DNA of 64,000 bases from an uncultured Verrucomicrobiota bacterium (GCA_964525755.1 CAZGIK010000003.1:50279-114278); one strand, 5' to 3'. Positions 24,979-42,878 are shown, counted from the first letter of the stretch. Made by a program: numbers and translations. Notes: generated from the letters alone by a model not told the origin.

Positions 24979-24983
24979 GGGTC

Positions 24984-25359
24984 GAGGTCGGAATCGGGAT
25001 CGACCTCCCTCCACCCCGCCCCTTTTCGCCGTCATCCGGAGCGCCGGGCTCCTGCGAGGCGGGGGCGAGCGGGGAGAACTCATTATCGTCCGCAGATTTC
25101 GCAGATTTCCGCAGATGCCGGGAGGCTCCGGAGCAGGGGAGGGAGAACGACAACAAAGGGTGCGAAGGGACGAAGATCATGGATGCCTTCTCTCGCTCGG
25201 GACCCTGCTGCCCGCTGCATGCGTTTCCCCGTAGCCGCGGCCGGTAGGCCGCCGGTCTGTGCTTCCTCCGAGCTCCGCCGCCCATGGCGATTTGTGTGCC
25301 CCTCCGCGCCTCAGCGCCTCCGCGGGAAAAAAAAGTCTCTTCCTCCCACTTCCCTCTGA
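24984..25359. repeat. Modular palindromic repeat element, left arm of the filled copy
   Basis: Shares modules with 40193-40652, including 66 identical nt (25104-25169 = 40263-40328), a GTAG hairpin at 25231, and the ctccgcg..cccacttccctctga module. Confidence 0.9.
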
Positions 25360-25367
25360 ACATCAGG

Positions 25368-25481
25368 GACGCGGGGCGGCTGACGAACAGGGTCGACGCG
25401 GTGGAGACCACGAAGTACACGTACGCCCATGGCCTGCTGGCGACCGAGGACGGTCCGTGGGCAGACAACACCGTGGCCTGA
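25368..25481 (+). pseudogene. RHS/YD-repeat gene fragment
   Basis: Translates as DAGRLTNRVDAVETTKYTYAHGLLATEDGPWADNTVA*, resembling verrucomicrobial RHS core repeats; no start codon, ends in a stop. Confidence 0.65.
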
Positions 25482-25500
25482 GATAACAGCCGGGGGGCAT

Positions 25501-26046
25501 ATGATAAATCGAAAGGGACGACGCTTCTGGGTTACTGCTATGGCGTTGGTCGCGCTTTGCATGACGGGTTGTGAAGGGAGGTTGCTGAAAATTGAGACCA
25601 GTGTAATGGCTCCAACCGTTACGAATGGGTCTAGGCTGGTGCTCAACAGGAAATGGACCTCGATTCAAAGGGGGGATGTGGTCGTGTTTACGATGCCGAC
25701 ATCCCGACAAAGTGTCTCGATAATGCGGGTCTATGCAATTGCTGGTGATACAGTTCAATATGATGCAAGGGCGGAAAAGTTGATGGTGCTAGATTCTAAT
25801 GGGTCGCGGGTGTCGCATGCTCCTGTGTCGGTTGATGCTAAACATGCAATGAAGATCGAGGAACAACTGGGTCCTGGAAAGTTGTTTGTTATGGGGGATA
25901 ATATGTACGACAGCTTCGACAGTAGGTATTGGGGCTTGCTCGATGAAGCTAGGGTGTTGGGGGTGGTCCCAGCATCGGCGATAGCCGGTGCGAGCGACGC
26001 GAAATGGCGTGCCATGGCGGTTGGAGAGGAGGCAATCATCCAATAG
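25501..26046 (+). CDS. Signal peptidase I (S26)-fold predicted lipoprotein, catalytic Ser/Lys apparently absent
   Basis: RGDVVVF; AIAGDTV; LFVMGDNMYDSFDSRYWG; lipobox-like LCMTGC; IETSVM and SIMRV occupy the IPSGSM and YIKRV positions; visibly lower GC than flanks. Confidence 0.78.
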   Translation: MINRKGRRFWVTAMALVALCMTGCEGRLLKIETSVMAPTVTNGSRLVLNRKWTSIQRGDVVVFTMPTSRQSVSIMRVYAIAGDTVQYDARAEKLMVLDSNGSRVSHAPVSVDAKHAMKIEEQLGPGKLFVMGDNMYDSFDSRYWGLLDEARVLGVVPASAIAGASDAKWRAMAVGEEAIIQ

Positions 26047-26115
26047 CTCGGATTTTGCACCAGTTCGGAGGTGGATTGGTTGGAGAGCTCGCGGTCAGCC
26101 CCGAATGCGTCGTTG

Positions 26116-26340
26116 GAAGGGCTCAAAGCCCGCTTTACACGGGCGTATGGAACTCGCACCCGCGTGAGGCCCGTGGGCGGCCGACACGGTGGGCCGGACG
26201 CTGGACATGGCGGGGCGGATGACCGGGTTGACCGAGCAGGGGCCTGCCTGCAGTTGGCTGTCGGTCCCTGCCGGGACCGAACCGCTCGCGGGAGCTCGCG
26301 GCTCCGGATGGGTGTGGAGGCCCCGGCGGCAACCTGGCTC
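26116..26340. repeat. Modular palindromic repeat element, right arm of the filled copy
   Basis: gaagggctcaaagcccgc matches 40658-40675; hairpin tcggtccc-tgcc-gggaccga; 38-mer gggaccgaaccgctcgcgggagctcgcggctccggatg at 26273-26310. Confidence 0.9.
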
Positions 26341-26370
26341 CCGTCCACTCCCGGTCGGGGTCGCTGTTGG

Positions 26371-27081
26371 TCAGGACACCGGTCCCGGCTGGGCGAGGAG
26401 GGCGACTTCGCGGAGGGGGAAGAGCAGTTGGCCCGCCCGTCGAAGGATCCGGAAGGTGGTCTCGCCCCGGCCGAGGCGGACGGCGAGGCGGGCGGCAAAC
26501 CGGTCGTAGCCGTAGCGGCGCAGGCCGACGCGCGTGACGGTGAAGCCGCAGACCGTGGCGAGCATTCCGAGGGTCTGCGGGGTCCAGGCAAAGAGGTGCC
26601 GGTTGGGCTCGTCCGGCCGGAAGCTCCGACCCGCCCGACCGTACTCATAGGGCACCACCACCAGGAGCCTGCCCACCGGACGCAGGAGTCGCCGGAGCTC
26701 AACCAGCACGGCGGCGGGATCGGCGACGTGTTCCAGGGAATGATGGGCGAGGGCGATGTCGAAGGATCCCGCCGGGAAGTCGGCGGAGTCCTCGACGAAC
26801 TCCGCCCCGACGGCCTCCACCTCGGCGCGTAGGAAGACGGACGCGTCCATGCCCACCCGGCGGCGGCAGCGGAGGTCGGCGAGGTTCCATCCGGCGCCGC
26901 ATCCGAACTCGAACAGGGAGGCGTCGGCGGGGACATCCGGTTGCAGCCGCCGGGCCCGGGCCCGGCGGACCCACGCGAGCGCCTCGGGGGGCAACCCCCG
27001 CTTGTCGCCGTGGTAGGACCGGCCCCGGGATCCCTCGTAGTGGTTTCGGGCGGCATCCATCGATGCCGCGGAGGCTGCCAT
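26371..27081 (-). CDS. Class I SAM-dependent methyltransferase
   Basis: LFEFGCGAG; GMD; FDIALAHHSLEHV.DP..LRRLLRPVGRLLVVVP. Confidence 0.82.
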   Translation of the reverse strand: MAASAASMDAARNHYEGSRGRSYHGDKRGLPPEALAWVRRARARRLQPDVPADASLFEFGCGAGWNLADLRCRRRVGMDASVFLRAEVEAVGAEFVEDSADFPAGSFDIALAHHSLEHVADPAAVLVELRRLLRPVGRLLVVVPYEYGRAGRSFRPDEPNRHLFAWTPQTLGMLATVCGFTVTRVGLRRYGYDRFAARLAVRLGRGETTFRILRRAGQLLFPLREVALLAQPGPVS

Positions 27082-27173
27082 GGGGCGGTCACCGGGCGAA
27101 GGGGGAACCGCACCCGCGCGCCCGCAGGCGCCGCTGTCCTTGCGTCGTCGCCGGTGCGGGAGAGAGTGGGGGC

Positions 27174-27950
27174 GTGCACGCGGTTCCGGCCCCCATCGCC
27201 TCCCTCCAAGCCCTGCGCGGGAAACGTCCCGTCGCCGCCCTGACCGCCTACGACTACCCGACCGCCCGCCTGCTGGACGAGGCGGGAGTGGACCTGCTGC
27301 TGGTGGGGGATTCGCTGGGGATGGTCGTCCTGGGGCATCCCGACACCACCTCGGTGACCCTGGCCGACATGGAGCATCATGTGCGGGCCGTGGCCCGGGC
27401 GGGGACCCGGGCACCGGTGGGGGGCGACCTGCCGTTCCGCACGTACGACACGCCGTCGATGGCGGTGGAGTCGGCGCGCCGGCTCACCGCTGCGGGCGCC
27501 GCGTGGGTGAAGGCGGAGGGCGGTCGGGAGATCCTGCCACAGGTGGAGGCCATCCTGGGGGCGGGGATCCCGTTCTGCGGCCACCTGGGCATGCTCCCGC
27601 AACATGTGCTGGAGGAGGGGGGCAAGTACCGGGTCAAGGGGCGTGACGATGCCGGCCGGGCCGGCCTGCTGGCGGATGCGGCCGCCCTGGAGGCGGCGGG
27701 GGCGTTCGCCTGTGTCCTCGAGTTGGTGACGCCACCCGTCGCCGCGGAGATCACCGGCGCGGCGCGGCGGATGCTGACGATCGGGATCGGGTCGGGCCCG
27801 GACTGCGACGGGCAGATCCTGGTGACGCACGACCTGGTGGGGGCGTTCCCGTGGTTCACCCCGAAGTTTGTCACCCCGAGGGTGCGGACGGGCGAGGCGA
27901 TCCGGGACGCGGCGGCGGGGTGGGTCCGGGACCTGGCGGCCGGCCGGTGA
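27174..27950 (+). CDS. panB: 3-methyl-2-oxobutanoate hydroxymethyltransferase
   Basis: LTAYDYPTARLLDEAGVDLLLVGDSLGM; GDLPF; GHLGMLPQ; IGIGSGPDCDGQILVTHDL. Start approximate. Confidence 0.95.
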   Translation: MHAVPAPIASLQALRGKRPVAALTAYDYPTARLLDEAGVDLLLVGDSLGMVVLGHPDTTSVTLADMEHHVRAVARAGTRAPVGGDLPFRTYDTPSMAVESARRLTAAGAAWVKAEGGREILPQVEAILGAGIPFCGHLGMLPQHVLEEGGKYRVKGRDDAGRAGLLADAAALEAAGAFACVLELVTPPVAAEITGAARRMLTIGIGSGPDCDGQILVTHDLVGAFPWFTPKFVTPRVRTGEAIRDAAAGWVRDLAAGR

Positions 27951-27978
27951 TGCCGGGCCGGTCGTCGTCGGGTTCCGA

Positions 27979-29178
27979 TCAGGGCTCGACCAGGACCGGC
28001 ATCCCGACCCAGGCCATCTGGCGCAGGAAGTCGGCGTTCCAGTTCGCCAGCCGGAAGCAGCCATGGCTTTCGGTGCGGCCGACCTGTTCCGGCGAGGGGG
28101 TGCCGTGGATGCCGTAGCCCGGCCGGTCGAGACCGATCCAGGCCACCCCGACGGGATTGTTGGGGCCCGGTGGGATGACCAGGCGGCGCCCCAAGCGTCG
28201 GCCCTCCTCCGATTCGGGGAACACCCGGGGGTCGAACGTGTAGTTGGGTTCGGCGACGAGGGTGACGACGTGCAGGTCGCCCACCGGCCGGCGGTCGGCG
28301 ATGCGTCCGATGCTGCACGGGAAGTGGGCGATCAGGATGCCGGACTCGTCGAAGGCGCGGAGGTGGCGATGGGACAGGCTGATCCGGACCCGGGCGGCCC
28401 GGCGGGGGGTGGGGAAGCGGGCGGCGGGCACGGCCAGCACGGTTCCGGGGGTGATCCGTGACCAGTCGATGGTCGGGTTGAGCTGCCGGAGCAATCGGGG
28501 GTGGGCGTGGGTGCGTTCGGCCACCCGCTCGAGGAGGTTCTCGTGGGGCAGCCCGGAAGCCTGGGACTTGTCCCACCAGGTGGTCGGGGTCGGGGCCAGT
28601 CCCGTGAGGTCGGCCTCGCCGACGGTGTACGGGCCGATCGCGGGCCGGTCGATGCGCAGGACGGCCCGGGTGGGGGCGTCGAGGCGGCCGGTCTGCTCGA
28701 GGGCCTGCTGGAGCTGGAACGAGCGGATGGCCGCCGCGGTCTGGGCTCCGAGCACCCCGTCGATCGACCCTCCGTTGATTCCGTGGGAGGCCAGCTGCAC
28801 CTGCGCCTCCAGCACATCGGCCACCGGCCGGCTTCCCGGCACCGTGGCGGTGGCCGGGGTGGCGGGCGACAGCGGACCGCGGGGGGCGCCGACGACCGGG
28901 GGCAGGTCGATCGCGGCCGAGGTCCCGTTGGTGACCGGTTCCCGGGCGATCGGCGTCCGGGCGGTGTCCGGGAGGAGCGAGGGGCGGGGATCCGGGATGG
29001 CGATTCCGCCGGGGGTGGGGAGGGGGTCGACGGTTCCGCCGGGCAGCCATCCCTGCCGCCAGGCGATGCTGCCGAGGGCGAGTGCGGCCAGCAGGAGCAG
29101 CCAGCGTCCCGGGGACGGCGCCGGGCGCCGGCCGGCCTCGCCGGGGAGGCGGAATCGGGTTCTGGGTCGTGCGGGCAC
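27979..29178 (-). CDS. L,D-transpeptidase (YkuD) with peptidoglycan-binding domains
   Basis: N-terminal TM helix; IDGVLGAQTAAAIRSFQ; GPNNPVGVAWIGL..YGIHGT..SHGCFRL. Confidence 0.9.
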   Translation of the reverse strand: MPARPRTRFRLPGEAGRRPAPSPGRWLLLLAALALGSIAWRQGWLPGGTVDPLPTPGGIAIPDPRPSLLPDTARTPIAREPVTNGTSAAIDLPPVVGAPRGPLSPATPATATVPGSRPVADVLEAQVQLASHGINGGSIDGVLGAQTAAAIRSFQLQQALEQTGRLDAPTRAVLRIDRPAIGPYTVGEADLTGLAPTPTTWWDKSQASGLPHENLLERVAERTHAHPRLLRQLNPTIDWSRITPGTVLAVPAARFPTPRRAARVRISLSHRHLRAFDESGILIAHFPCSIGRIADRRPVGDLHVVTLVAEPNYTFDPRVFPESEEGRRLGRRLVIPPGPNNPVGVAWIGLDRPGYGIHGTPSPEQVGRTESHGCFRLANWNADFLRQMAWVGMPVLVEP

Positions 29179-29203
29179 CGCGCCGAGTCTCCGTCAGTCC
29201 GGT

Positions 29204-29644
29204 TCAGACGTCGATCACCGGTCCACTGCCACCGCCCGATCCCCGATCCCCTCCCGATCCGCCCGGGGGGCGGCCCGGACCGTTGCCCGGGCGCGGGCCG
29301 AGGAAGAGTCCGGCCACGAAGGTGACGAACGAGATGATCAGCGCCCCCCAGAAGGCGGCCCAGAACCCGTCGACATGGAACCCCTTCACCAGTCCGCCCA
29401 CGCCCCAGAGCAGGAGGGCGTTGATGACGAGGAGGCCGAGGCCGAAGGTCAGGAGGACCAGGGAGATCGACACCAGCACCAGCAGGGGGCGGACGAAGGC
29501 GTTGAGGAGGCCGAGGAGAAGGGAGGCGACGAGGAGGCTCCCGGTGGTGTCGTAGTGGATGCCGCCGACGATGTTGGCGGCGACGAGCACGCCGACCGTG
29601 GTGATCAGCCAGCGTTGGAGGAACTGGACGGTGCCTGCATGCAC
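29204..29644 (-). CDS. 4-TM phage-holin-family (YvlD/DUF360) membrane protein
   Basis: LLLGLLNAFVRPLLVLVSISLVLLTFGLGLLVINALLLW..GFHVDGFWAAFWGALIIS. Confidence 0.85.
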   Translation of the reverse strand: MHAGTVQFLQRWLITTVGVLVAANIVGGIHYDTTGSLLVASLLLGLLNAFVRPLLVLVSISLVLLTFGLGLLVINALLLWGVGGLVKGFHVDGFWAAFWGALIISFVTFVAGLFLGPRPGNGPGRPPGGSGGDRGSGGGSGPVIDV

Positions 29645-29831
29645 GGGGGCAATAGCGCAGAGGGGCGTGGCCGGGGCAAGGGGCAAAGCCGGGTGGGGCG
29701 GGGCCGGTGAGCGGAGATTCGACCGCACGGAACCCATCGAACTCAAAAGGGCTCCGTGCGAAGCTGAACTGCGGCGGGCAGTGCCTCGCGGAGACGCTAG
29801 CGTCCCCGCATGCGGGCTGTCCGGCCGGAAC

Positions 29832-29884
29832 GGTGGCACAAGTCTCCCGCCGCCCGTAGCCGCGGTCGGTAGGCCGCCGGTCCC
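29832..29884 (+). repeat. GTAG-type REP-like palindrome
   Basis: ccGTAGccgcggtcggtaggccgccggtc; near-identical to 25229-25257 and 41381-41409. Confidence 0.75.
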
Positions 29885-30253: not shown

Positions 30254-30823
30254 ATGAACATCATCACCACCCTGGCGGCACTTGCAGCAACCATCAGCCT
30301 TTCCCAGGCAGCCAGCTTCGACTTCACAACGACACTGAGCGGTGATCAGGAAGTGCCTCCAAACACCTCGACGCGTACCGGCACAGGGACGGCCACCTAC
30401 GACTCCGCAACCAGGTTGTTGACGATCAGTGGAACGTTTACAGCGCCGGCATTTGATGTCCCTGATTCCTGGGGCGGCGGGGGTGGATTCGGATCCGGTG
30501 GGGGGTTGGTCGGGCTCGCGTCAATTTACACCAGCGCTCATGTGCATCGAGGTACTGCGGGCGTCACCGGCGACGTCGTGTTTGGACTCACCTTCGATTC
30601 CGCGCTCAGCGGATCCTTCAACGGCTCCGGCGTTCTCACGGAGTCCGACGAAACAGCCCTTTTCGCTTCAGGTCTGTACATCAATTTTCACAATGGCATT
30701 TATCCGGATGGCGAGATTCGGGGCCAATTGATCCCCGTCCCCGAACCCGAAACCTATGCCACGCTGGCAGGCCTCGGCCTCATCGGCTTCGGACTCTGGC
30801 GGCGTCGCGCGACTCGCGCGTAG
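30254..30823 (+). CDS. CHRD-domain PEP-CTERM protein
   Basis: LSGDQEVPP..TGTGTAT; AHVHRG; LYINFHNGIYPDGEIRGQL; VPEPETYATLAGLGLIGFGLWRRR. Confidence 0.9.
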   Translation: MNIITTLAALAATISLSQAASFDFTTTLSGDQEVPPNTSTRTGTGTATYDSATRLLTISGTFTAPAFDVPDSWGGGGGFGSGGGLVGLASIYTSAHVHRGTAGVTGDVVFGLTFDSALSGSFNGSGVLTESDETALFASGLYINFHNGIYPDGEIRGQLIPVPEPETYATLAGLGLIGFGLWRRRATRA

Positions 30824-30977
30824 GCCCGGGACTCCACCCCGGCAGAAGGCCTGCGGCGTGGGGGCGGCTACCGGGCCTCAACCCGGACGAGACCCGCGGC
30901 GCCGTCAGTGGGCCTTGGGGTAGAGCTGACCGGAAACTGCGAGGGGTCCTGTTTTCGCGGAAACGGCCCGGGGGCGA

Positions 30978-31265
30978 GGCACCGGGAACCCGCGGATTAT
31001 CATCCGCAGCCACGGGGCGCCGCGCTGGTTTTGACTTCGGCGGGAAGCGTCCGCGCCACGCCGTTTCGGAAGCCGGACCGGGGCTTGCGGGGACGCTCGC
31101 GTCACCGCATGGAAGTGGCCCGGCAGGGACGGTGGCGCGAGGCTCCTGCCGGGCTGCGCCCTGCCGCCGCCCCGCTCCCGGCGTTCGTGGCGGAGGCCGG
31201 TAGGCCGCCGTGCCCTTCGCCATCCCTGCCCATGGCCGTCCGTGTTCCTCCGCGTCTCAGTGCCG
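30978..31265. repeat. Repeat cluster on the left of the ECF sigma gene
   Basis: aggcaccgggaacccgcggattatcatccgcagc and cggtggcgcgaggctcctgccg..ccccgctcccggcgttcgtg both recur in the same orientation at 33182-33470. Confidence 0.85.
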
Positions 31266-31321
31266 CAAGAAATGAACCGTTCCTTCCCAACTTCGCCTTG
31301 GGCCGGCGGACGAAAGCGGCA

Positions 31322-32806
31322 TCACTCGGGTCGGCGGGATTGCCGCTCGGGCGGAAAGGCGTTCTCTTGCTCCCACGCCAGCAACTCCTCGAAGGAGTCC
31401 TTGCCAACAATCCTGGCAGAGCCGTCAGCGTGGAGATATGCCCGTGCGACGCTCCCCCTGGGGCCGACGGTGAAGTCTGACCGTCGTGCAATGATCGTTC
31501 CACTTCGTTCACGCGCAGGAATGTCCTCAATGTTTCCGTGAAACAGCATCACCACATCCCCGGCCCCCAGGATCTCCTCAGGCTTGGTATTGGGGGCCTT
31601 GGCAATCGAGGATAGAATCCCGGGCAGCTCCGATTCGGTTGGATACCAACCGTTGTTCTCCTGAGCGTGGACCATCAGATCGAGCCCAAGGCGACGCAAG
31701 GGATACATCTTGCGCACAGGCATCTGCTCCCATTCCGCCTGATCAAAGTCTTCCGGATCCACTTCAGGTGGAGCCGAGAGTGTCCCCGGCTCACTCGACG
31801 CCACGGCGATCTCCTGATCCCTATCGCTTGCCTTGCCTAGCTCTGCCAACTGCCGTCGAAGGGCAGCGATCTCGCCCCGAAGTCTGGGCAAGTCCACAAT
31901 GTCCCGCTTGAGCCGATCGATCTGTTCGTCACGCAGTTGGATCGACTCCCGTGCTTGGTGCTGTTCGGCTGTAAGCTTGCTGTGGGCTTCGTTGATGAGC
32001 GCCTGGTGATCCGCGCGCAACCGCTCCGCTTCACGTTCCCGCACGAGGTACGTGGTGGTCCCGGTCGCAGCGACGGTCGCGAGGATGGCGGCCGCGGTCT
32101 TGAGGTTCGGCAGGTTCATGAGGGTTGTGGTGATATGCGTGGCGGCGATGGCTGTGGCGGACGCGGTGGTGAGTCCGGTCAGGGCGCTTACGACAATCGT
32201 GGCACCCAAGCCCGCCGGCGCGACGACTGCCGCCTGGGTGGCGAGGGCGGTGGTGAGCAGGCCGGTCGAGAGGGCGCCGCCGCGTCTGCCGAAGATTCCG
32301 CGCAGCTTGTCGAGTGCTCGGCTCACGCGCTTGCGGGCGGCCTCCTCGCTGATGCCGAGTTCGACGCCAACCTCCCGCAACTGCCGGTTGTCCAGAAACC
32401 GCAGGACGAGCGCGTCGCGGTCCTCGGCCGGGAGTTCCTCGAGCGCGCCCTCGAGTTCGGCGGCGATCCATTCGGGTTCAGGCGCGGTCTCGTGGGTCTG
32501 CATTGCGGCGGCGGTTTGCTCGCGTTGACGGCGACGGCCCTCGGCGCGGCTGGCGTTGAGGGCATGATGCCGAGCGGTGTGATAGAGCCAGCCGGCCAGC
32601 GGTCGTCCCTCGCGAATCTCACCCGCCTTTTGGGCGAGCAGCAGAAAGACGCCTTGCGCGGTCTCCTCGGCGAGGCGGCGATCGCCCAGAATCCGCCTGG
32701 AGGTTGCGAACACCAAGTTGAGGTGGCGGTTCACCATTTGCCGGAAGGCGTCCTCGGAACGCTCCCGGACGAACGCGCGCAACAGTTCCTGATCGCTCGC
32801 TTGCAT
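31322..32806 (-). CDS. ECF sigma-70 factor with TM segment and long C-terminal extension
   Basis: SDQELLRAFV..DAFRQMVNRH; AQGVFLLLAQKA; LAGWLY; LPAEDRDALVLRF..EVGVELGISEEAARKRVSRALDKLR; then Ala/Thr linker, hydrophobic helix, coiled coil and a domain ending RAYLHADGS. Confidence 0.9.
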   Translation of the reverse strand: MQASDQELLRAFVRERSEDAFRQMVNRHLNLVFATSRRILGDRRLAEETAQGVFLLLAQKAGEIREGRPLAGWLYHTARHHALNASRAEGRRRQREQTAAAMQTHETAPEPEWIAAELEGALEELPAEDRDALVLRFLDNRQLREVGVELGISEEAARKRVSRALDKLRGIFGRRGGALSTGLLTTALATQAAVVAPAGLGATIVVSALTGLTTASATAIAATHITTTLMNLPNLKTAAAILATVAATGTTTYLVREREAERLRADHQALINEAHSKLTAEQHQARESIQLRDEQIDRLKRDIVDLPRLRGEIAALRRQLAELGKASDRDQEIAVASSEPGTLSAPPEVDPEDFDQAEWEQMPVRKMYPLRRLGLDLMVHAQENNGWYPTESELPGILSSIAKAPNTKPEEILGAGDVVMLFHGNIEDIPARERSGTIIARRSDFTVGPRGSVARAYLHADGSARIVGKDSFEELLAWEQENAFPPERQSRRPE

Positions 32807-33135
32807 CTTCTTCCTTCTGATCTCCGCCGAGAGTCGAAACCGGACGGGGAAAGTGCGGTGGGGCTTTCCGGCAGGACACTGAGCACTCAACCGCCAACAT
32901 CCAACGCCCTGGGCGGGTCCATCCGGATGAAGGGGGGATGGCATCATCGGTTGACGATCGCGGCGAGGCTCCGGTCTTCCATTCTGTGATCGGGCTTCCC
33001 TCGAACCGGGGGGCGGAAGCAGCACCGGCCGTCCCCGGGGTCACCCCCGCCATGTGCACGGGATCGGTTGTCCGGGCGAAGAGTGGCCATGCCGGGACCG
33101 TTGCGGGCTGACTCCCAACCGGCCTCACACGTGGG

Positions 33136-33470
33136 CACGGAGACACGGAGGGGATGTCGGGAGCGGAGCGGCGCGGTATCAAGGCACCGGGAACCCGCGG
33201 ATTATCATCCGCAGCTAAGGTGCCCGGCGCCGCCTTGGAGCGGAGCCGGACGTGTGTGGGATGCCCGGGGCGGGGCGCTTCGCCGTTCGCCGATGGGCAC
33301 CGTCCTCGCCGTAGCCGACGCCGATCGGCGGCCGGTGGCGTTTGGGTCCGTCCAAAGCGGTGTCGACGCCCCGCTCTGCCACCGCAGTCCATATGGGCGC
33401 CGGTCCGGAACGGTGGCGCGAGGCTCCTGCCGAGCTGCGCCCTGCAGCCGCCCCGCTCCCGGCGTTCGTG
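33136..33470. repeat. Repeat cluster on the right of the ECF sigma gene
   Basis: Shares modules with 30978-31265; 33136-33217 also closely matches 41084-41162. Confidence 0.85.
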
Positions 33471-34549: not shown

Positions 34550-34595
34550 CGGGAGGGACGCTGCGGCGCGGGCCGGCTTCGGGGTGGGCGGTGCG

Positions 34596-36403
34596 CTACC
34601 AGCGGGGGCGGTCGGCGAGGTACAGGTGGCCGGCACGTGCCGAGCCCGCGTAGGCGTTGAGGAGGGGGAAGCCCTTGGGAAGGTTCCGTCGCACCAGGGC
34701 GTCGAGGTACAGCCAGCCCCAGCGGTAGCTGTTCACGTCGGTCACCAGCAGGCGGACCGGCGCCTCGGTGGTGTAGGGCGACAGGTACAGGGCGTTGACC
34801 GGCTTGAGGAAGTCGTGGACGGCGTAGAAGTCCTCGCGGTCCTCGGGGCTCTGGATGCGCAGGGGGAGCTGGATGCAGTCCCGGTTTCCGTACCAGGCGA
34901 CCGCCCACGGGATGTCGCTCATCATGAGTTCGGACTCCGTGATGAACCCGGCCAGTTCCCGGACCACGGCCGGACGGTAGACCGGTTCCACGAGCGGGTA
35001 GGTGCGTGGGGGGAGGACCGACGTGAGGAGTGGCAGGCTGAGCACGAACCAGGCGGCGCCGACCGCCATGCGGCGGAAGAGGTCGTGTCCGAACGGCGTG
35101 CTGTCGAGCAGGGTGAAGAAGAAGGCGGCACCGTAGAGGAACACCACCGGGGCGAGCAGGCACAGGAGGTTCTCCGAGTTCACGGCGGGGACCATGAGGG
35201 ACAGCTGGGTGGTGCCGAGGCACTCGACCACGAACAGGAGGCCGAGCGCGGCGAGGAGGAACCATCGGAGCCGGGAGGGGGTGCGTCCGGAGAACCTCAG
35301 GATGAGGCCGGCGAGGAAGAGGAAGGTCAGCCAGTTGCCGCCGAGGGACGGGATGCCCTCGCGGAATTTCGCGGCGCCCTCGGTGGCCAGCTTGACGCGG
35401 TACTCGGTGAAGGTGGGCTGGCGCGCGGGGGCCTGGAGGAGGCGTTCGCGATGGTCCTCGGGGAACTCGATGGTGCGGCTCTGGAGGGCGTACCCGGCCG
35501 TGCCGAAGGGATGTCCGCTCAGGTGGTGGTTGCGGGCCAGCCAGGGGCTGATGACCAGCAGGAAGGCGGCGACGGCGGCTGCGGCCATGGACCCGCGGCG
35601 CGAGCCGGCGCAGAGGAGGAAGCCGGCCACCGGGAGGATGAGCCAGCCGAAGGCGTACCGGGTGAGGCATCCGATGCCGACGAGGAGTCCGGCGAGGACG
35701 GCGAGTCCGAGGAGCGGCCCGGCGGGCGGCGGGGGCTGGGGATGGGCGAGGACCGGGGTGCGCTGGTCGATGTGGACCAGGGTGATGGCAAGGCCGAGGG
35801 TGACGGCCAGCAGGAACGGGGTGGAGAGGCCGTTGCTGCTCATGCGCCAGAACAGCTCGGTGCTGGCGAGCGCGGCGGCGGCGAGCGCGCCGGTGGCCGG
35901 GTCGAAGAGCCGTCGGCCGAGCCGCCAGGTCATCCAGGCCGCCAGCGCCAGCCAGCCGAGGTTGAAGACCGTCACCGCCACCTCGGCCCACGGGCGTTGC
36001 CCCGACTCGTCGCCGGGCACGGCGTCGCGCCACGCGGCGGGCATCGCCTTGAACAGGCCGGCCAGCAGGACGGGATAGACCGGGGGATTCTGGATGTCGG
36101 GGTGGGGCCGGCGGAGGAGGTCGGGATCCGGCTGGCCGCGTTCCACCGCCCGGTCCAGTTGCAGGCGGACGCTGAGCGGGCGGATGTAGTGGGTGGTGTA
36201 CCCGCGGCCGGTGGCGATGTTGTGGGCCAACTGGGCGGTGTCCATCGCCTCCGGATTGCTGAAGTTGCGCGCCTCGGTGAGGAGGTAGAGGGCGAGGACG
36301 GCGCCGGCGGCGAGGGTGCCGGCAATCCAGACCAGCCAGCGCCGGCCGGCCCCCTCCTCGAGGAGGTGGATGTAGTCCTGGATGCCTTTGGGGGGTTGGT
36401 TCA

Positions 36404-36404
<1 letters not shown>
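34596..36404 (-). CDS. Multi-TM GT-C glycosyltransferase (GT39/ArnT/PMT-like)
   Basis: EAMDTAQLAHNIATGRGYTT; PPVYPVLLA; CLTRY; PWLARN; many TM helices. Confidence 0.72.
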
Positions 36405-37828
<1,424 letters not shown>

Positions 37829-37865
37829 GGCGGCGGGGGTCCAATGCGCGGGACGGGGAGGTGGA

Positions 37866-39146
37866 TCAGGCGCGGACGGGGGCCGGTCGGCCGGTGCCGA
37901 GGAGCCGCGGGCTGGGCTCCATCAGCGGGAGCCAGAGCCGGAAGGTGGTGCCCTGGTGGACGCGGCTGTCCATCTCGACCCGGCCGCCGTGGTCGCGGAT
38001 GATCCGCTGGACGATCATCAGGCCAAGGCCGGTGCCCTTCTCCTTGGTGGTGTAGAAGGGTTGGAAGATCCGCTGGAGCTGCTCCGGGGGGATGCCGCCC
38101 CCGGTGTCGGTGATGGAGAGCCAGACCGCGTCCGGGGTGGCGCCGGAGGCGAGGGTGAGGCGTCCGCCGCGCTGCATGGCCTGCATGGCGTTCTTGATGA
38201 GGTTGACCAGCACCTGCTTGATCTGGGCGGGGTCGCACCGGGCGGCGGGGAGGCGGGGCGCCAGGCGGTCCTCGACCTCCAGGCCCCGGTTGTCGAGCTC
38301 GGGGCGGAGCAGGTCGAGCGTGGCGCGGGCGACGTCGTTGAGGACGGCCGCCTCGAACCGCGGGGGCGTGGGACGGAGGGCCTGGAGGAACTCGGTGATG
38401 ATGTAGTCCAGGCGCCCGATCTCCCCCTGGGCCACGTCGAGGTAGCCGTCCATGCGTCCGGCCAGTTCCAGCACCTCGTCGGTCCCCATCGTGTCCCCCC
38501 CGGGGCGTCCGGAGCGGCCGTCGGCGGATGCGGTGCCGCACAGGAGGCGGAGGCGCTTGATCTCGCGGGTCAGGAGCTGGAGGTGGATGTGGATGGCGTT
38601 GAGGGGATTCCCGATCTCGTGCGCGACGCTGGCGGCGAGGAGGGTGAGGGCGTGGAGGCGTTCGCTCTCGATGACCTCGGAGGTCTGCTGGCGCAGCTCG
38701 GTCTGGTCGTGGACGATGAGGACCACGCCGTCCGTGCCGTCGCGTCCGCCGGCCAGCGGGGTGGCGAGGACGCGGAGGAAGCGCGGGCGGGGGTATTCCA
38801 CCTCCAGTTCCGTCCGGTACACCCCGCGGTTCTCCCCGGGGTCGCCCTGCCGCAGCCGGTCCCAGTCGAGCCCGGGCAGGAAGCGTCCGATCGGCAGCCC
38901 CTCCGCGCCGTCCGCCGGCACGCCGACCAGTCCCGGGGCGGCCTGGTTGGCGTAGAGGATCCGTCCGTCCGCATCCAGCACCAGCACGCCGTCGGCGATC
39001 GAGTTGAACACCGTCTCGAGGAACGCCCGCTCGCGGGCCAGTTGCTGGACGACCGTCTGGAGCCCCTCCGGATCGATCCGGCCGATCCGGCCCAGGACCT
39101 TGTCGAGGAAGCTCGACTTGCCCGACGCCTTGCGCTTCACAGCCAT
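37866..39146 (-). CDS. Soluble PAS-domain sensor histidine kinase
   Basis: PAS (VFNSIADGVLVLD..ILYANQAA); AHEIGNPL; QVLVNLIKNA; DTGGGI; FYTTKEKGTGLGL; no TM helix seen. Confidence 0.92.
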   Translation of the reverse strand: MAVKRKASGKSSFLDKVLGRIGRIDPEGLQTVVQQLARERAFLETVFNSIADGVLVLDADGRILYANQAAPGLVGVPADGAEGLPIGRFLPGLDWDRLRQGDPGENRGVYRTELEVEYPRPRFLRVLATPLAGGRDGTDGVVLIVHDQTELRQQTSEVIESERLHALTLLAASVAHEIGNPLNAIHIHLQLLTREIKRLRLLCGTASADGRSGRPGGDTMGTDEVLELAGRMDGYLDVAQGEIGRLDYIITEFLQALRPTPPRFEAAVLNDVARATLDLLRPELDNRGLEVEDRLAPRLPAARCDPAQIKQVLVNLIKNAMQAMQRGGRLTLASGATPDAVWLSITDTGGGIPPEQLQRIFQPFYTTKEKGTGLGLMIVQRIIRDHGGRVEMDSRVHQGTTFRLWLPLMEPSPRLLGTGRPAPVRA

Positions 39147-40135
39147 TTCTTGCGCTTGAAGTAGAAGACGGTGAGGGCGGTGAGAACGGCGGTGAGCCCC
39201 GTCACGAACCAGTAGCCGTGGCGCCAGTGGATCTCCGGGGTGTGCTGGAAGTTCATCCCGTACCAGCTGGCGATGACGGTCGCCGGGGTGGTGATCACCG
39301 TGATGATGGTGAGGAGCTTCACCACCTCGCTGGTGCGGTTGGAGGAGAGGTTGAGGTAGATCTGGAGGATGCCGGTGATGGAGTCGATGTACCCCTGGGC
39401 CAGCTCGGAGATGCGGAACAGTCCGTCGTAGACGTCGCGGTAGTACGGCACGAGGTGGGCGCGGATGAGCTTGAACTCGCCGCGGGCGAACCGGGCGAGG
39501 ACCTCGCGCTGGGGGCCGATGATCTGGCGCAGGTGATGGACCTCCTTCTTCACCTGGATCAGCCGCTGGAGGGTCTGGGGTTCGGGATGCTGGAGGACGT
39601 CGTCCTCGAGGTCGGAGATCTCGAGGCTGAGTTCGTCCAGCGCCGGCTTGTAGTGTTCCACCAGGGCGTCGAGGAGGGCGTGGGCGACGCGGTCGGGGGC
39701 CCGGGCGACGTGCACCGTGCTCTTCAGGCAGCGTTCCTCGGTCTGCTGGATCGGCCGCAGGGGGACGGGGTGGTAGGTGACGAGGAAGTTCTTCCCGAGG
39801 AAGAAGTTCAGTTCGCTGGTGGCGAACACGCCGTCCTTGCGGCTGTAGTCGACCGCGTGGATGACCATGAACAGGTAGGGGGCGAAATGGTCGTCCTCCT
39901 TCGGCTCGTAGGTCTCCACCTTGGGCGACTGGCTCAGGTTGATGCAGTCGTCGATCGACAGGGGGTGGAAATGGAAGACGCCCTCGAGGATCTGGCGGGT
40001 TTCCTCCGGGGTGGCCGCCTCGAGATCGACCCAGAGGAACAGGTTGGTGTCCGCCAGGAGGGTCGGCATGAGGAACACCTCGATGTCGCGGCTGTGCAAC
40101 CGGCCCTGGGTGGTGAAGGCGAACGAGCGGATCAT
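39137..40135 (-). CDS. corA: Magnesium/cobalt transporter CorA
   Basis: FLWVDL; FHFHPLSIDDC; PKVETY; C-terminal IASWYGMNF (GMN signature) and two TM helices. Confidence 0.93.
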   Translation of the reverse strand: MIRSFAFTTQGRLHSRDIEVFLMPTLLADTNLFLWVDLEAATPEETRQILEGVFHFHPLSIDDCINLSQSPKVETYEPKEDDHFAPYLFMVIHAVDYSRKDGVFATSELNFFLGKNFLVTYHPVPLRPIQQTEERCLKSTVHVARAPDRVAHALLDALVEHYKPALDELSLEISDLEDDVLQHPEPQTLQRLIQVKKEVHHLRQIIGPQREVLARFARGEFKLIRAHLVPYYRDVYDGLFRISELAQGYIDSITGILQIYLNLSSNRTSEVVKLLTIITVITTPATVIASWYGMNFQHTPEIHWRHGYWFVTGLTAVLTALTVFYFKRKKWL

Positions 40136-40192
40136 GAGCGGCGGGCTCAGAGTCGCGAAAGCGGACGGGCGGGGCAAGACACCACGGCGTCC

Positions 40193-41460
40193 TCCGGAGC
40201 GCCGAGCTCCTGCGAGGCGGGGGCACGGCGGGGAGAACCCGTATTCATCCGCAGATTTCGCCGATTTCCGCAGATGCCGGGAGGCTCCGGAGCAGGGGAG
40301 GGAGAACGACAACAAAGGGTGCGAAGGGGCGAAGATCAGGGATGCCTTCCCTCGTTCGGGGCCCTGCGGCCCGCTGCCTGCGATTCCCCGCAGCCGCGGC
40401 CGTCAGGCCGCGGGTCCGTGCCCCGGAGCGTTGCCGCCGATGGCCGTTCGTGTTCTTCGTAGCGGCGGCCGTTAGGCCGCCGTGCCCCCTGCTTCCTTCG
40501 AGCCGCGCTGCCGCTTCGGGTGGGTCCCTCGTAGCCGCGGCCGATAGGCCGGCGGTCCGCTCCTCGAAGCTCCACCGCTCATCGCCGCTCGCATTCCTCC
40601 GCGTCTCAGCGCCTCCGCGGGAAAAAAGTCTCTTCCTCCCACTTCCCTCTGAGTGCCGAAGGGGTCAAAGCCCGCTTTTGACACAAGCGGCTGGAGCCTG
40701 GGCCTGCTTGAGCCCGTGGGCGGACGCCACGGCGAGCCGGACGCTGGACACGGCGGGGCGGATGACCGGGTTGACCGTGGAGGGGACTGCCTGTGGTTGG
40801 GCGTCGGTCCCTGCCGGGACCGAACCGCTCGCGGGAGCTCGCGGCTCCGGATGGGCGCGGAGGCACCTGCGGCAACCCGGCTCTTCTCCGCGCGGGGTCG
40901 GGGTCGGAATCGGAATCGATCTCCCTCCACCCGGCCCCTCTTCGCCTTCTTCCGGAGCGCCGAGCTCCTGCGAGGCGGGGGCAAAAGGGCGAAGGTCGTC
41001 GATCCGGTAGTTCTCTCCGTGTCTCCGTGCCCCTGTGAGAGATCGCCTCAGGGCTGATTCCGGATGGGCCTCACACAGCGACACGAAGACACGGAGGGGA
41101 TGCCGGGAGCGGAGCGGGGCGGTGGCGAGGCGCCGGGGACCGCGGATTATCATCCGCAGCTACGGGGCGTCGCGCGGATCTGGACTGGCGTGGGACGGGG
41201 CTCGCGGGGACGCCCGCGCCACCGCAGGTGGGCCCGGGGCCTGGAGGCAGCACCGGCCGTCTCATGACCGCCGCCACTCATGCGGGTGGGGAGGGTTTGG
41301 CCGTCGGTCCCTTTCGGGACCGAACCGCTCGCGGGAGCTCGCGGCTCCGGATGCGCGCGGAGGCGCGAGGCTCCCGCCGCCCGTAGCCGCGGCCGATAGG
41401 CCGCCGGTCACCACTTCCTCAGAGCTCCACCGCCCGTGGCGGTCCGTGTTCCTCCGCGTT
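40193..41460. repeat. Largest cluster of the modular palindromic repeat (empty unit plus additional modules)
   Basis: tccggagcgccgagctcctgcgaggcgggggc at 40193 and 40951 (758 bp apart); GTAG hairpins at 40459, 40531, 41383; 38-mer at 40816 and 41316; gtcaaa..tttgac hairpin at 40664-40683. Confidence 0.92.
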
Positions 41461-41538
41461 CTCCGAGAGGCACCGGGGGCGTGCGCAGGGAGGGAGCCAT
41501 TGACGAGCGGGCAGGTGAGGCGAAGCGTTGCCTGGCGA

Positions 41539-42516
41539 ATGATTTCCGGGGAACTCAACACCGACGTGCTGGTCGTTGGCGCGGGCATGGCGGGATTGAT
41601 GGCTGCCGCCGAACTGCAGCAGGCCGGCCGGTCGGTCCGGGTTCTCGACAAGGGACGCGGGGTCGGCGGACGCCTCGCCAGCCGCAGGATCGACGGGGTC
41701 ACGTTTGACCACGGGGCCCAGTGCCTCACCACCCGCGATTCCCGCCTCGCGGTCGGAACGTGGCGCGATCGTTTGGGCGATGTGCTGGTGGCATGGCGCC
41801 CGGGATCGACCGCGGAGGACCGGGAACGCTGCCACTGGCGCGGGAAACCCTCCATGTCCGCGGTGGCCAAGCATCTGGCGCGCGGGTTGGAGGTGCATCT
41901 GGAAGCCGTTGTGACGGGCCTGTGTCGGGACGGAGACCGGTGGAGCGCCACCACCGCCAGCGGCGCCACCTTCTCCGCCCGGGCCGTGGTGCTCACGCCG
42001 CCGGTGCCCCAGTCGCTCGCGTTGCTCGACGCGGGCGGCGTGCCGATCGCAACCGAACTCCGTTCCCGGCTGACCGCGATCGAATACGATCGGTGCCTCG
42101 CGGTGATGGCCCTGCTGGACGGGCCGTCCCGCGTCCCTCCTCCGGGTGGCGTGGCGCCGACCTCGGGTCCCATTGCCTGGATCACCGACAACCTGCTGAA
42201 GGGAATCTCGTCGGAACCGGCCGTGACCCTGCATACGACTCCCGGGTTCAGCGCGAAACACTGGGATCGCGATCGGCAGGAGAGCGGGCGAGTCCTGCTC
42301 GACGCGGGTGCGGAGTGGCTGGGCGCCGGGGTTCGGACGTTTCAGGTGCACGGTTGGCGGTACAGCCGGCCGCGGGTCCTTGATCCGGACCGTTGCCGGG
42401 TCGTCGATGCGTCGGGGTCGTTGATCCTGGCGGGGGACGCCTTCGGATGCGGGGGAGTCGAGGGAGCCGCCTTGTCCGGGTTGGCGGCGGCGGAATCGAT
42501 TCTGCAGGCTTGGTGA
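41539..42516 (+). CDS. FAD/NAD(P)-dependent oxidoreductase, renalase-like
   Basis: VVGAGMAGL..VLDKGRGVGGRLASRR; FDHGAQ; HGWRYSRP; LAGDAFG..VEGAALSG. Confidence 0.88.
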   Translation: MISGELNTDVLVVGAGMAGLMAAAELQQAGRSVRVLDKGRGVGGRLASRRIDGVTFDHGAQCLTTRDSRLAVGTWRDRLGDVLVAWRPGSTAEDRERCHWRGKPSMSAVAKHLARGLEVHLEAVVTGLCRDGDRWSATTASGATFSARAVVLTPPVPQSLALLDAGGVPIATELRSRLTAIEYDRCLAVMALLDGPSRVPPPGGVAPTSGPIAWITDNLLKGISSEPAVTLHTTPGFSAKHWDRDRQESGRVLLDAGAEWLGAGVRTFQVHGWRYSRPRVLDPDRCRVVDASGSLILAGDAFGCGGVEGAALSGLAAAESILQAW

Positions 42517-42563
42517 TGGTTGACCGCACGCCGGGCGGGTGCACCGGTGGAGCGGGAATGAAG
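42516..42563 (+). repeat. 48-bp direct repeat, copy 1 (copy 2 at 44154-44201)
   Basis: atggttgaccgcacgccgggcgggtgcaccggtggagcgggaatgaag versus atggttgaccggacgcgggttgggtgcaccggtggaacgggaatgaag; 43/48 identical. Confidence 0.85.
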
Positions 42564-42572
42564 GGGAGGACA

Positions 42573-42878
42573 GAAGGGGTCAACGCCCGTTTTTTGCACA
42601 AGTGGCTGGAACCCGCACCCGCTTGAGGCCCGTGGTGACCGTGCGGGGGCCTGCCCGTCGTTGGGCATCGGTCCCTTCCGGGACCGAACCGCTCGCAGGA
42701 GCTCGCGGCTCCGGATGGGCGCGGAGGCGCCGGCGGCAACCTGGCGCCCATCCCTCCCTCCGGGGATCGGATCGGAGTCGACCTCCCCACGTTCCCTTCC
42801 ATCAGCCCGGTTTTCCGGAGCGCCGAGCTCCTGTGAGGCGGGGGCGCCGGGGCGGAAGGGAACCTTCATCCGCAGATG
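42573..42878. repeat. Further copy of the modular palindromic repeat
   Basis: gaaggggtcaacgccc; tcggtccc-ttcc-gggaccga hairpin; 38-mer with one change at 42680; ggagcgccgagctcc module at 42814; catccgcagat. Confidence 0.88.

What the first reader, a model, noticed from the sequence alone, without database searches (positions are those of the whole stretch)
24984..42878. Modular, circularly permuted ~760-bp repeat unit present both empty and carrying cargo at one fixed position
Seen: at 40.2-41.0 kb the modules run A (tccggagcgccgagctcc, 40193), a 66-nt block, GTAG hairpins, D (..cccacttccctctga, ends 40652), E (gaaggggtcaaagcccgc, 40658), B (38-mer, 40816), C (tcggaatc..ctccctccac), then A again at 40951, a 758-bp period. 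At 25.0-26.3 kb the order is C-A-66nt-GTAG-D, then ~755 bp of foreign-looking DNA (RHS scar plus S26-fold gene), then E-B. So D and E are 5 nt apart in one copy and ~755 nt apart in the other. A third copy at 42.6-42.9 kb reads E-B-C-A. Inference: this behaves like a non-autonomous element that is amplified as a multimer or circle and captures or releases genes at the D/E junction. That is more organised than an ordinary REP/BIME cluster and could be an undescribed cassette system. No mobilising enzyme is in the window.
Basis: partly seen in the sequence, partly recalled or inferred. Interest (0 to 1): 0.8.

Follow-up and report, generated by a model that had tools for sequence, protein, structure and literature searches.

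The report
Repeat flanks of decayed RHS toxin loci
The ~760-bp "unit" is the upstream and downstream non-coding flanks of this bacterium's RHS toxin genes joined together, and the copy "with cargo" is a decayed RHS toxin-immunity locus, so this is known biology in a new lineage and not a new gene-capture system.

Summary
The modules, their order and the 5-nt versus 757-nt D/E spacing are real. An independent assembly reproduces the filled copy.

The "758-bp unit" is not a periodic or circular element. Its parts differ widely in copy number and partners across the genome.
- A-to-D is the conserved upstream flank of every RHS toxin locus in this Verrucomicrobiota genome: 6 of 6 RHS-core hits.
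- E-B is the downstream flank. E's first 30 nt is the conserved upstream box of a Y1-transposase-like gene family, of which only fragments survive here.
- The DNA between D and E forms a decay series: full-length RHS plus immunity gene (6.6 kb); truncated orphan RHS plus immunity gene; RHS scar plus S26-fold gene (this window); a start-codon remnant; nothing.
- C-A, B and the GTAG hairpins belong to a REP/BIME-like repeat network. Its RAYT transposase lies on another contig.

This is a new-lineage example of polymorphic RHS loci with orphan modules set in REP mosaics. How leader-bearing orphans reached at least six loci is unexplained.

The parts
24979..25067 (+). C-A module pair at the left edge of the 25-kb copy (C about 24979-25026, A 25027-25067)
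   Evidence: Repeat families D5 and D8. The C-A pair recurs genome-wide.
25069..25359 (+). RHS 'leader' (a2 to D), including one GTAG hairpin at 25219-25259
   Evidence: Families D4, D6, D17, D18 and D3. The same composite precedes all six RHS-core loci.
25360..25481 (+). RHS scar (module R): YD-repeat fragment ...LTNRVDAVETTKYTYAHGLLATEDGPWADNTVA, closed by TGA at 25479-25481
   Evidence: tblastn to residues about 1330-1379 of the full-length RHS at C19. The same D|R junction occurs in C31, C42, C11 and C24.
25501..26046 (+). S26 (signal-peptidase-fold) lipoprotein-like gene, about 50% GC, in the position where intact loci carry the immunity gene
   Evidence: Pfam PF10502 E 2e-25; TIGR02227 87.6 bits. 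Apart from a 99%-identical copy in one other public assembly (P0001), the nearest relative is 34% identical. Low-GC small ORFs sit in the same position in C19, C1, C31 and C11.
26116..26363 (+). RHS 'trailer' E-e2-B, followed by a truncated C, ending at the stop of the next gene
   Evidence: Families D1, D2 and D10. E has a sharp left end in all copies.
40185..40652 (+). A plus the full leader (a2, a3, a4, three GTAG hairpins at 40378-40418, 40447-40487 and 40519-40559, d1, D)
   Evidence: It is 88-93% identical to the leaders at C1, C19, C24 and C22. Two of the three hairpins fold with z -3.7 and -4.4; the third (40522-40562) is not distinguishable from shuffles, z -0.84.
40653..40866 (+). 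Trailer E-e2-B joined directly to D (the body-less slot)
   Evidence: The same direct junction occurs twice on C14.
40893..40983 (+). Second C-A pair. With B it forms a long hairpin (a REPIN-like inverted doublet).
   Evidence: Inverted repeat I3. The fold of 40797-40990 gives -61.9 kcal/mol, z -3.86, with 0 of 200 shuffles as stable.
40984..41235 (+). X1-X2 palindromic repeat block, which follows B-C-A in 5 of 9 cases
41297..41468 (+). A further B copy plus a GTAG hairpin and a d1-like piece, directly upstream of the renalase-like gene
   Evidence: Families D2, D3, D6 and D12.
42570..42885 (+). Third copy: E, B, C, A and a short a2, filling a convergent spacer that is about 50 nt long in relatives

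Best explanation
The repeat 'unit' is not one element. It is three kinds of repeated DNA lying side by side.

1. The leader. A 420-460-nt non-coding stretch (A, a2...D, then a 65-nt piece 'b' carrying AAGGAG and ATG) is the shared upstream region of this genome's RHS polymorphic-toxin gene family.
2. The trailer. E-e2-B follows the small low-GC immunity-position gene downstream of those loci. It begins with the upstream box of a Y1-transposase-like gene family, of which only fragments remain in this genome.
3. REP/BIME-like modules. These are the C-A pair, B as the inverted partner of A, and the GTAG hairpins. They belong to a genome-wide repeat network with a cognate RAYT on another contig.

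D/E is therefore the slot occupied by the RHS gene body and its immunity gene. The 25-kb copy is a decayed orphan RHS locus: leader, 40-codon YD scar, toxin part deleted, downstream S26-fold gene kept, trailer. The 40-kb copy is a leader joined straight to a trailer, most simply by loss of the whole body.

Shown here: the module architecture, the association with RHS, the graded series of contents, and the presence of a RAYT.

Inferred: that body-less copies arose by deletion; that conserved core, leader and trailer serve as homology arms for recombination and duplication among loci; and that the S26-fold gene is a stranded immunity-type gene.
For: - All six TIGR03696 RHS-core hits above cut-off lie 0.5-5.2 kb downstream of a leader in the same orientation (C1, C11, C19, C24, C31, C42).
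- C19 has a full-length 2009-aa frame. The others match it only from residue about 1336-1343 onward, with shared or private internal deletions.
- The six loci share a near-identical core up to ...YDPNTQRW(V/P)NRDP and then have six unrelated C-terminal tips. Four of the six are followed by an overlapping 50-53% GC small ORF (C19, C1, C31, C11); C24 shows none and C42 runs off its contig.
- E follows that small ORF in C11, C19 and the window.
- Contents between D and E, by copy:
  - 5 nt in the window and in two C14 copies.
  - 65 nt including the RBS and ATGAAGACCGTCCT in C23.
  - A 35-nt scar plus X1/X2 at C3:7.1 kb.
  - A 122-nt scar plus the S26 gene in the window.
  - An orphan RHS plus small ORF, about 1.55 kb, in C11.
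  - A full RHS plus small ORF plus an IS5 fragment, 6.6 kb, in C19.
- Module copy numbers differ 10-fold.
- A-like copies are followed by Y (44), a2 (25), X1 (8) or other DNA (45).
- The RAYT at C50 scores 80.7 bits against NF047646, just above the 80-bit cut-off, and matches PDB 4ER8 TnpA-REP at E 5.6e-6. It is flanked by 148-nt arrays holding Y and a B-like module.
- The E box is conserved upstream of the Y1 gene in all 7 relative loci examined.
- An independent assembly confirms the filled copy.
- Orphan rhs-CT/immunity modules that retain core sequence, and recombination among them, are described in PMC3150448 and PMC3967940.
Against: - The direction of change at the direct D-E junction (window and C14) cannot be proven. 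Those junctions may be one old event, and only C23 carries a tell-tale RHS remnant.
- Classical orphan modules sit in tandem behind the main rhs gene and lack upstream signals. Here at least five orphans each carry the full leader, share one leader|R junction, and lie at separate loci. Simple local decay does not explain that.
- The dispersal mechanism was not identified.
- The immunity role of the small ORFs and of the S26-fold gene rests on position and GC content only. Pfam found nothing for three of the small ORFs or for the three C-terminal tips tested beyond the shared RHS-repeat matches; the C11 small ORF was not scanned.
- No close relatives or reads were available to see presence/absence polymorphism.
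Confidence: 0.7

Rival explanations
1. The leader-slot-trailer block is a non-autonomous mobile carrier. It would be REPIN- or MITE-like, bounded by the inverted A and B modules or by direct C-A repeats. The RAYT or a Y1 transposase would move it in trans, or a circle would recombine into dispersed C-A sites. That would spread RHS toxin-immunity cassettes around the chromosome.
For: - A and the 3' part of B are 80% complementary over 35 nt, and B-C-A folds into a long hairpin.
- Leader-bearing orphans with one shared junction lie at five or more unlinked loci.
- A RAYT flanked by related modules exists.
- Y1 gene fragments adjoin the trailer.
- E has a sharp, invariant left end.
- E-B-C-A fills a spacer that is about 50 nt long in relatives.
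Against: - The left edge of the unit is ragged: with C, without C, or cut inside the C-A linker.
- There is no common right end and no target duplications.
- B-C-A is followed by X1 in 5 of 9 cases and never by Y, although Y follows 44 of 123 A copies. That argues against integration at random C-A sites.
- The RAYT's own flanks carry Y and B-like modules, not the leader.
- In the Y1 family whose upstream box matches E, no intact gene remains in this assembly.
Confidence: 0.15
2. The direct D-E joint is the ancestral state, and RHS bodies were inserted there by a site-specific, integron-like capture mechanism.
For: The window and C14 junctions fall within 2 nt of each other on the D side. The slot holds different toxin tips in different copies.
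Against: - The cargo has no conserved right end or attC-like site. The sequences abutting E are all different.
- C23 keeps the RBS, the ATG and four more codons of the RHS gene next to E.
- The cargo is one gene family in graded states of truncation.
- None of the ten tyrosine recombinases in the genome lies within about 35 kb of a leader or trailer; C25's lies 6.4 kb from an E-like variant.
Confidence: 0.05
3. The leader is mainly a functional regulatory region (a promoter plus a long structured 5' UTR). It was copied along with RHS paralogues, and the body-less copies persist because they drive neighbouring genes or a small RNA.
For: - The leader ends 50 nt before AAGGAG-N5-ATG of the RHS gene.
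- Its short motifs a2 and d1 are conserved as repeats across the genus and order.
- The body-less copy lies in a divergent promoter region.
Against: No Rfam family matches. No expression data exist. Leader fragments end at many different points next to unrelated genes.
Confidence: 0.08
4. The 25-kb locus is a misassembly or two independent repeat insertions.
For: Short-read assemblies often collapse repeats, and several contigs end inside these modules.
Against: An independent 963-nt contig from another run spans D-scar-S26-E-B at 99% identity. The same leader|R junction occurs in four other contigs.
Confidence: 0.02

Closest known systems
Rhs polymorphic toxin loci with orphan rhs-CT/rhsI modules (Dickeya, Yersinia, Salmonella; PMC3150448, PMC3967940)
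   Same: - A conserved YD-repeat core.
- A demarcation motif followed by unrelated C-terminal tips.
- A small downstream gene of lower GC.
- 5'-truncated orphan copies that keep a stretch of core.
- Decay and rearrangement by recombination between conserved parts.
   Different: - The orphans here are not stacked behind the main gene. They are scattered over at least five loci.
- Each carries the complete 460-nt upstream leader, fused at one shared point about 600 residues before the C-terminus.
- Leader and trailer survive as a body-less pair.
- The host is an uncultured freshwater Verrucomicrobiota lineage.
- Toxin and immunity functions are untested.
E. coli K-12 Rhs elements (composite repeated elements with a GC-rich core, AT-rich extension and H-rpt/ISAs1-like pieces; from my own knowledge, not checked in a paper here)
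   Same: Multi-copy composite blocks made of a GC-rich core, lower-GC tips and downstream ORFs, and insertion-sequence debris. They act as dispersed homology for rearrangements.
   Different: The flanks here are REP-like modules and a Y1-family gene remnant rather than H-rpt. The copies are much more decayed.
REP/BIME mosaics and REPIN-RAYT systems (PMC3116915, PMC3337134, PMC5581495; E. coli TnpA-REP structure 4ER8)
   Same: - Short GC-rich hairpin modules at 100-190 copies.
- Inverted doublets that fold as long hairpins.
- Modules combined in fixed relative order with other motifs.
- One intact REP-type RAYT (NF047646) flanked by its own repeats.
   Different: - The RAYT flanks are tandem 148-nt arrays in the same orientation on both sides.
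- Several hairpin families coexist with one intact RAYT.
- Long (over 400 nt) non-hairpin segments are attached to the C-A pair.
Integron gene cassettes
   Same: A fixed slot downstream of a promoter-like region, with variable gene content between conserved sequences.
   Different: There is no adjacent integrase, no attC-like cargo end, and a single cargo family in various states of truncation. Exchange is best explained by homologous recombination.

Membership tests
Rhs polymorphic toxin locus | YD/RHS repeats and the RHS-associated core domain | tested here: met
   TIGR03696 scores 48-77 bits at six loci. RHS_repeat matches are below cut-off in three C-terminal regions. The window's scar aligns to the YD region of the C19 protein.
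Rhs polymorphic toxin locus | A conserved core ending in a demarcation motif, followed by unrelated C-terminal tips | tested here: met
   The six loci are near-identical to ...YDPNTQRW(V/P)NRDP and then diverge completely after a DPxGL-like motif.
Rhs polymorphic toxin locus | A cognate immunity gene immediately downstream | tested here: inconclusive
   Small ORFs of 50-53% GC overlap or abut the RHS stop in C19, C1, C31 and C11. They have no family match and no functional test. In the window the S26-fold gene holds this position.
Rhs polymorphic toxin locus | Orphan modules: 5'-truncated copies that keep core sequence | tested here: met
   C24, C31, C42, C11 and the window start at residue about 1330-1343 of the full-length protein.
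Rhs polymorphic toxin locus | A delivery context (T6SS VgrG/PAAR or another export route) | not tested
   Only a predicted signal peptide (MKTVLSLLAGALCGVLALPASA) was seen at the full-length genes, and it is out of frame with the body as assembled.
REP/REPIN-RAYT system | A RAYT (HUH Y1 transposase of the REP type) in the genome | tested here: met
   The C50 ORF scores 80.7 bits against NF047646 (cut-off 80). It matches PDB 4ER8 at E 5.6e-6. Its Pfam Y1_Tnp score of 18.9 bits is below cut-off.
REP/REPIN-RAYT system | The RAYT is flanked by copies of the repeat it serves | tested here: met
   There are 3.5 and 3.7 copies of a 148-nt unit on the two sides. The unit holds Y (about 188 copies genome-wide) and a B-like module with 40 of 51 identical positions.
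REP/REPIN-RAYT system | The finding's own modules are members of that repeat population | tested here: inconclusive
   A is followed by Y in 44 of 123 copies, and B resembles the RAYT-flank module. But A, C, the GTAG hairpins and the leader are absent from the RAYT flanks themselves.
REP/REPIN-RAYT system | Inverted doublet forming a hairpin (REPIN) | tested here: met
   B-C-A folds at -61.9 kcal/mol, z -3.86.
MITE / transposon with passenger | Precise ends with terminal inverted repeats and target-site duplication | tested here: not met
   An A/B inverted repeat exists. But the left edges are ragged and there is no common right end or duplication.
Integron-like cassette system | An adjacent site-specific recombinase and a recombination site on each cassette | tested here: not met
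   Ten PF00589 hits were found, none within about 35 kb of a leader or trailer; the C25 one lies 6.4 kb from an E-like variant. The cargo ends next to E are all different.

The most novel reading that the evidence does not exclude
The leader-RHS-immunity-trailer block is a mobilisable toxin cassette. A 5'-truncated RHS fused to a portable leader was copied to at least five unlinked sites, either by an HUH (RAYT/Y1) enzyme acting on the REP-like ends or through circular intermediates. If so, REP-type repeats in this lineage spread and shuffle interbacterial toxin genes.
Probability: 0.12. Interest if true: 0.7.

Novelty: new member of a known kind. Interest (0 to 1): 0.3.

Why it matters
The result removes a candidate new cassette system and replaces it with a concrete map. 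An uncultured freshwater Verrucomicrobiota genome has one full-length RHS gene, at least five leader-bearing orphans with six different toxin tips, and several fully eroded loci. All are framed by REP-like repeats.

That matters modestly in three ways:
- It extends the orphan-module picture of RHS evolution to a phylum where it is little studied.
- It shows that conserved non-coding flanks can outlive the gene they framed.
- It leaves one real open point: how identical leader-orphan fusions reached scattered sites.

Tried and rejected
- **E as an IS5 transposase remnant.** The C19 trailer abuts the C-terminal end of an IS5-family gene. The full copy at C26 shows that E is not part of that gene.
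- **e2-B as a degenerate YD-coding remnant.** One frame reads LDTAGRMTGLT. The differences between copies are not synonymous-biased and nothing supports the idea, so I dropped it.
- **Rfam.** No family matched at gathering or at E below 1 in the repeat regions, apart from chance-level hits.
- **Exact-pattern scans.** Scans for A in genome contigs and for D and E in metagenome contigs found nothing.
- **Protein look-up for the window's S26 gene.** The look-up of encoding contigs found nothing. The 99%-identical cluster member P0001, returned by the search for homologous proteins, gave one short Logan contig.
- **Orthologous-locus comparison.** It is limited because same-genus genomes share only 52-65% protein identity. 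The long composite is absent from 30 relatives.
- **Pfam on toxin tips and immunity-position ORFs.** Nothing specific was found. A weak DDE_Tnp_1 hit in the C24 tip is below cut-off.
- **One script** timed out and was rerun.

Full report
**1. Observation**

- A starts at 40193 and again at 40951.
- D ends at 40652, and E starts at 40658.
- In the 25-kb copy D ends at 25359 and E starts at about 26117, so 757 nt lie between them.
- A third partial copy, E-B-C-A, lies at 42570-42846.

The 25-kb and 40-kb copies are 88-100% identical over segments of 31-195 nt. The DNA between D and E at 25 kb has about 50% GC in a 70% GC genome. It consists of a 122-nt YD-repeat fragment and a Peptidase_S26 gene.

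A 963-nt contig assembled from an unrelated public run has the same D-scar-S26-E-B order with 8 differences. This rules out misassembly.

**2. The unit is a mosaic, not a period**

I searched the 758-bp stretch against the whole 4.79-Mb assembly. Its parts have very different copy numbers:
- about 65 for A;
- about 80-90 for each GTAG hairpin;
- about 125 for part of B;
- about 140 for C;
- only 10-25 for the long a3-D and E-e2 segments.

With a looser pattern there are 123 A-like copies, and 85 of them are preceded by C. Their right-hand partner is a hairpin doublet Y in 44, the a2 leader in 25, a palindromic block X1-X2 in 8, and other DNA in 45.

The second A at 40951 is followed by X1-X2, not by a2. 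B-C-A is followed by X1 in 5 of 9 cases genome-wide. So there is no second unit and no multimer. The whole 1.4-kb divergent spacer 40137-41538 is built end to end from repeat modules. The apparent circular permutation comes from C-A being a shared module at the head of several different composites.

**3. What D and E border**

I followed every copy of the D end. It runs into one of three things:
- the same YD fragment as in the window (C31, C42, C11, C24 and two copies near C3:6-7 kb);
- a 65-nt piece 'b' carrying AAGGAG and ATGAAGACC, followed by RHS coding sequence (C1, C19);
- E.

A search with the RHS-associated core model found six loci above cut-off. Each lies directly downstream of a leader in the same orientation.

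C19 holds a full-length 2009-residue frame. C1 is internally deleted. C24, C31, C42, C11 and the window begin at residue about 1330-1343 of the full-length protein, so they share one leader-to-YD junction.

The six proteins are nearly identical up to ...YDPNTQRW(V/P)NRDP. After that they have six unrelated C-terminal ends. In C19, C1, C31 and C11 a small ORF of 50-53% GC overlaps or abuts the stop; C24 shows none and C42 ends at its contig edge. This is the anatomy of polymorphic Rhs toxin loci with orphan rhs-CT/immunity modules, as described in PMC3150448 and PMC3967940.

E follows the small ORF in C11, in C19 (after an IS5 transposase fragment) and in the window.

**4. A graded series at the slot**

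| Copy | DNA between D and E |
|---|---|
| C19 | Full RHS, small ORF and IS5 fragment (6.6 kb) |
| C11 | Orphan RHS and small ORF (about 1.55 kb) |
| Window, 25 kb | 122-nt scar and the S26-fold gene (757 nt) |
| C3:7.1 kb | 35-nt scar and X1-X2 (about 340 nt) |
| C23 | 65 nt comprising b, the ribosome-binding site, ATG and four more RHS codons |
| Window 40.65 kb; C14 (two copies) | 5 nt |

Sources.

The C23 joint can only be read as a deletion from a filled locus. The D-side breakpoints differ by up to 65 nt, and the sequences abutting E are all different. E itself always starts at the same nucleotide.

This pattern fits loss and recombination within a gene family with conserved flanks. It does not fit site-specific capture of discrete cassettes. 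None of the ten tyrosine recombinases in the assembly lies within about 35 kb of a leader or trailer; the one on C25 lies 6.4 kb from an E-like variant.

**5. What the trailer and the short modules are**

A 43-codon fragment (MPRPLRVEYEG...LETLGEA) lies just after E in C11. Pieces of it lie just after B in C19 and C14.
- The same N-terminus heads a multi-copy gene of 310-440 residues in 29 of 31 related genomes.
- One full copy scores above cut-off for Y1_Tnp.
- In all seven loci from relatives that I examined, the gene is preceded at 35-60 nt by a variant of the box GGGGTCAGTCCTCACnnTTGACAC, which matches the first 30 nt of E.

So E is the upstream box of a Y1-transposase-like gene, and in this genome that gene has decayed to fragments.

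Separately, contig C50 carries an intact REP-associated tyrosine transposase. It scores 80.7 bits against NF047646 (cut-off 80) and matches the E. coli TnpA-REP structure 4ER8 at E 5.6e-6. It is flanked on both sides by about 3.6 copies of a 148-nt unit. That unit holds the Y doublet (about 188 copies genome-wide) and a module with 40 of 51 positions identical to B.

A is the inverted counterpart of the 3' part of B, and B-C-A folds as one long hairpin with z -3.86. Two of the window's three GTAG hairpins fold as 8-9-bp GC stems with tetraloops (z -3.7 and -4.4); the third is not distinguishable from shuffles (z -0.84). About 109 copies exist genome-wide.

These features match REP/BIME mosaics and REPIN-RAYT systems (PMC3116915, PMC3337134, PMC5581495).

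**6. Relatives**

LipA places the genome among uncultured freshwater Verrucomicrobiota, in Limisphaerales/Pedosphaera-like MAGs. Thirty related genomes lack the long composite and share only short motifs: a2, d1 and C. The convergent spacer that holds E-B-C-A at 42.5-42.9 kb is about 50 nt long in relatives. Same-genus genomes are only 52-65% identical in protein, so exact insertion boundaries could not be read from them.

**7. Mechanism, and what stays open**

The best-supported reading is as follows. An RHS locus with its upstream leader and downstream trailer was duplicated within this genome. One copy lost the first about 1335 codons, which fused the leader to the YD region. That truncated form spread to several sites and acquired different toxin-immunity tips, with the conserved core and trailer available as homology arms. 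Individual copies then eroded down to scars or to a bare leader-trailer pair.

The window holds one scar copy and one bare pair. The architecture and the RHS association are shown. The order of events, the role of homologous recombination and the immunity role of the S26-fold gene are inferred.

The means by which leader-orphan fusions reached unlinked loci is not explained.
- Against transposition as a discrete unit: ragged left edges, no common right end and no duplications.
- Against recombination into random C-A sites: the non-random X1 partner of B-C-A.
- A role for the RAYT or Y1 enzymes cannot be excluded. I rate it at roughly one in eight.

**8. Verdict**

D/E is a real variable slot, and an HUH enzyme flanked by related modules exists. 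But the slot belongs to RHS toxin loci, the content is one gene family in various states of decay, and the surrounding order is that of a REP/BIME-type mosaic. This is a new member of known kinds and of modest interest.

Noticed in passing
G000 C19:~92504-92590 and C1:~267250-267333 (outside the window): The full-length RHS genes begin with a signal-peptide ORF (MKTVLSLLAGALCGVLALPASATPPRL*). It stops after a run of nine C, and one extra C would fuse it to the 2009-residue frame. This is either an assembly slip repeated in two copies or a phase-variable switch.
   Followed up: no
window 25501-26046: The S26-fold gene is an orphan in sequence space. Apart from a 99% copy in one other public assembly, the best relative among 5.8 billion proteins is 34% identical. 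The Ser-Met and Lys box positions read SVM and IMR, so it is probably not an active signal peptidase.
   Followed up: partly
G000 C50:~20100-21800 (locus L008 834-2473): An intact RAYT gene is flanked on both sides, in the same orientation, by 3.5 and 3.7 tandem copies of a 148-nt unit (94% matches). RAYTs are more usually flanked by inverted REP or REPIN copies.
   Followed up: partly
loci L102-L108 (relatives G016, G021, G022, G023, G025, G028, G029): A multi-copy Y1_Tnp-family gene (up to 31 hits per genome, many with stops) is always preceded by the box GGGGTCAGTCCTCACnnTTGACAC. The box is conserved across several families of the order.
   Followed up: partly
window 40240-40280 and 25085-25118; relatives L005, L006: The motif ATCCGCAGATTTCGC(C/A)GATTTCCGCAGATG, a run of CGCAGATTT-like words, recurs in many genomes of the genus and order, sometimes as inverted pairs about 100 nt apart. 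It may be the same kind of short-word array noted earlier in this genome around a small four-helix-bundle gene.
   Followed up: no
G000 C26:~36300-37100 and C19:98843-99046: C26 carries a full-length IS5-family transposase gene of about 265 residues. A C-terminal fragment of the same gene is wedged between the immunity-position ORF and E at the full-length RHS locus.
   Followed up: partly
G000 C31:62120-62233: An IS200-type TnpA N-terminal fragment (MNYKSLSHTKWECKYHMVFIPKYRRK...) lies between the C31 immunity-position ORF and an E-like sequence at the contig end.
   Followed up: no
G000 C64:~6500-6960: A 136-residue ORF of lower GC, starting MNDPYGL..., lies directly before an E copy. It resembles the DPxGL demarcation of polymorphic toxins and may be another stranded toxin tip.
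   Followed up: no
window 29844-29884, 31175-31215, 30964-31034, 33105-33239: GTAG hairpins and other repeat modules (families D3, D7, D9, D11) bracket the lower-GC CHRD/PEP-CTERM gene (30254-30823) and the ECF sigma-like gene (31322-33025).
   Followed up: no
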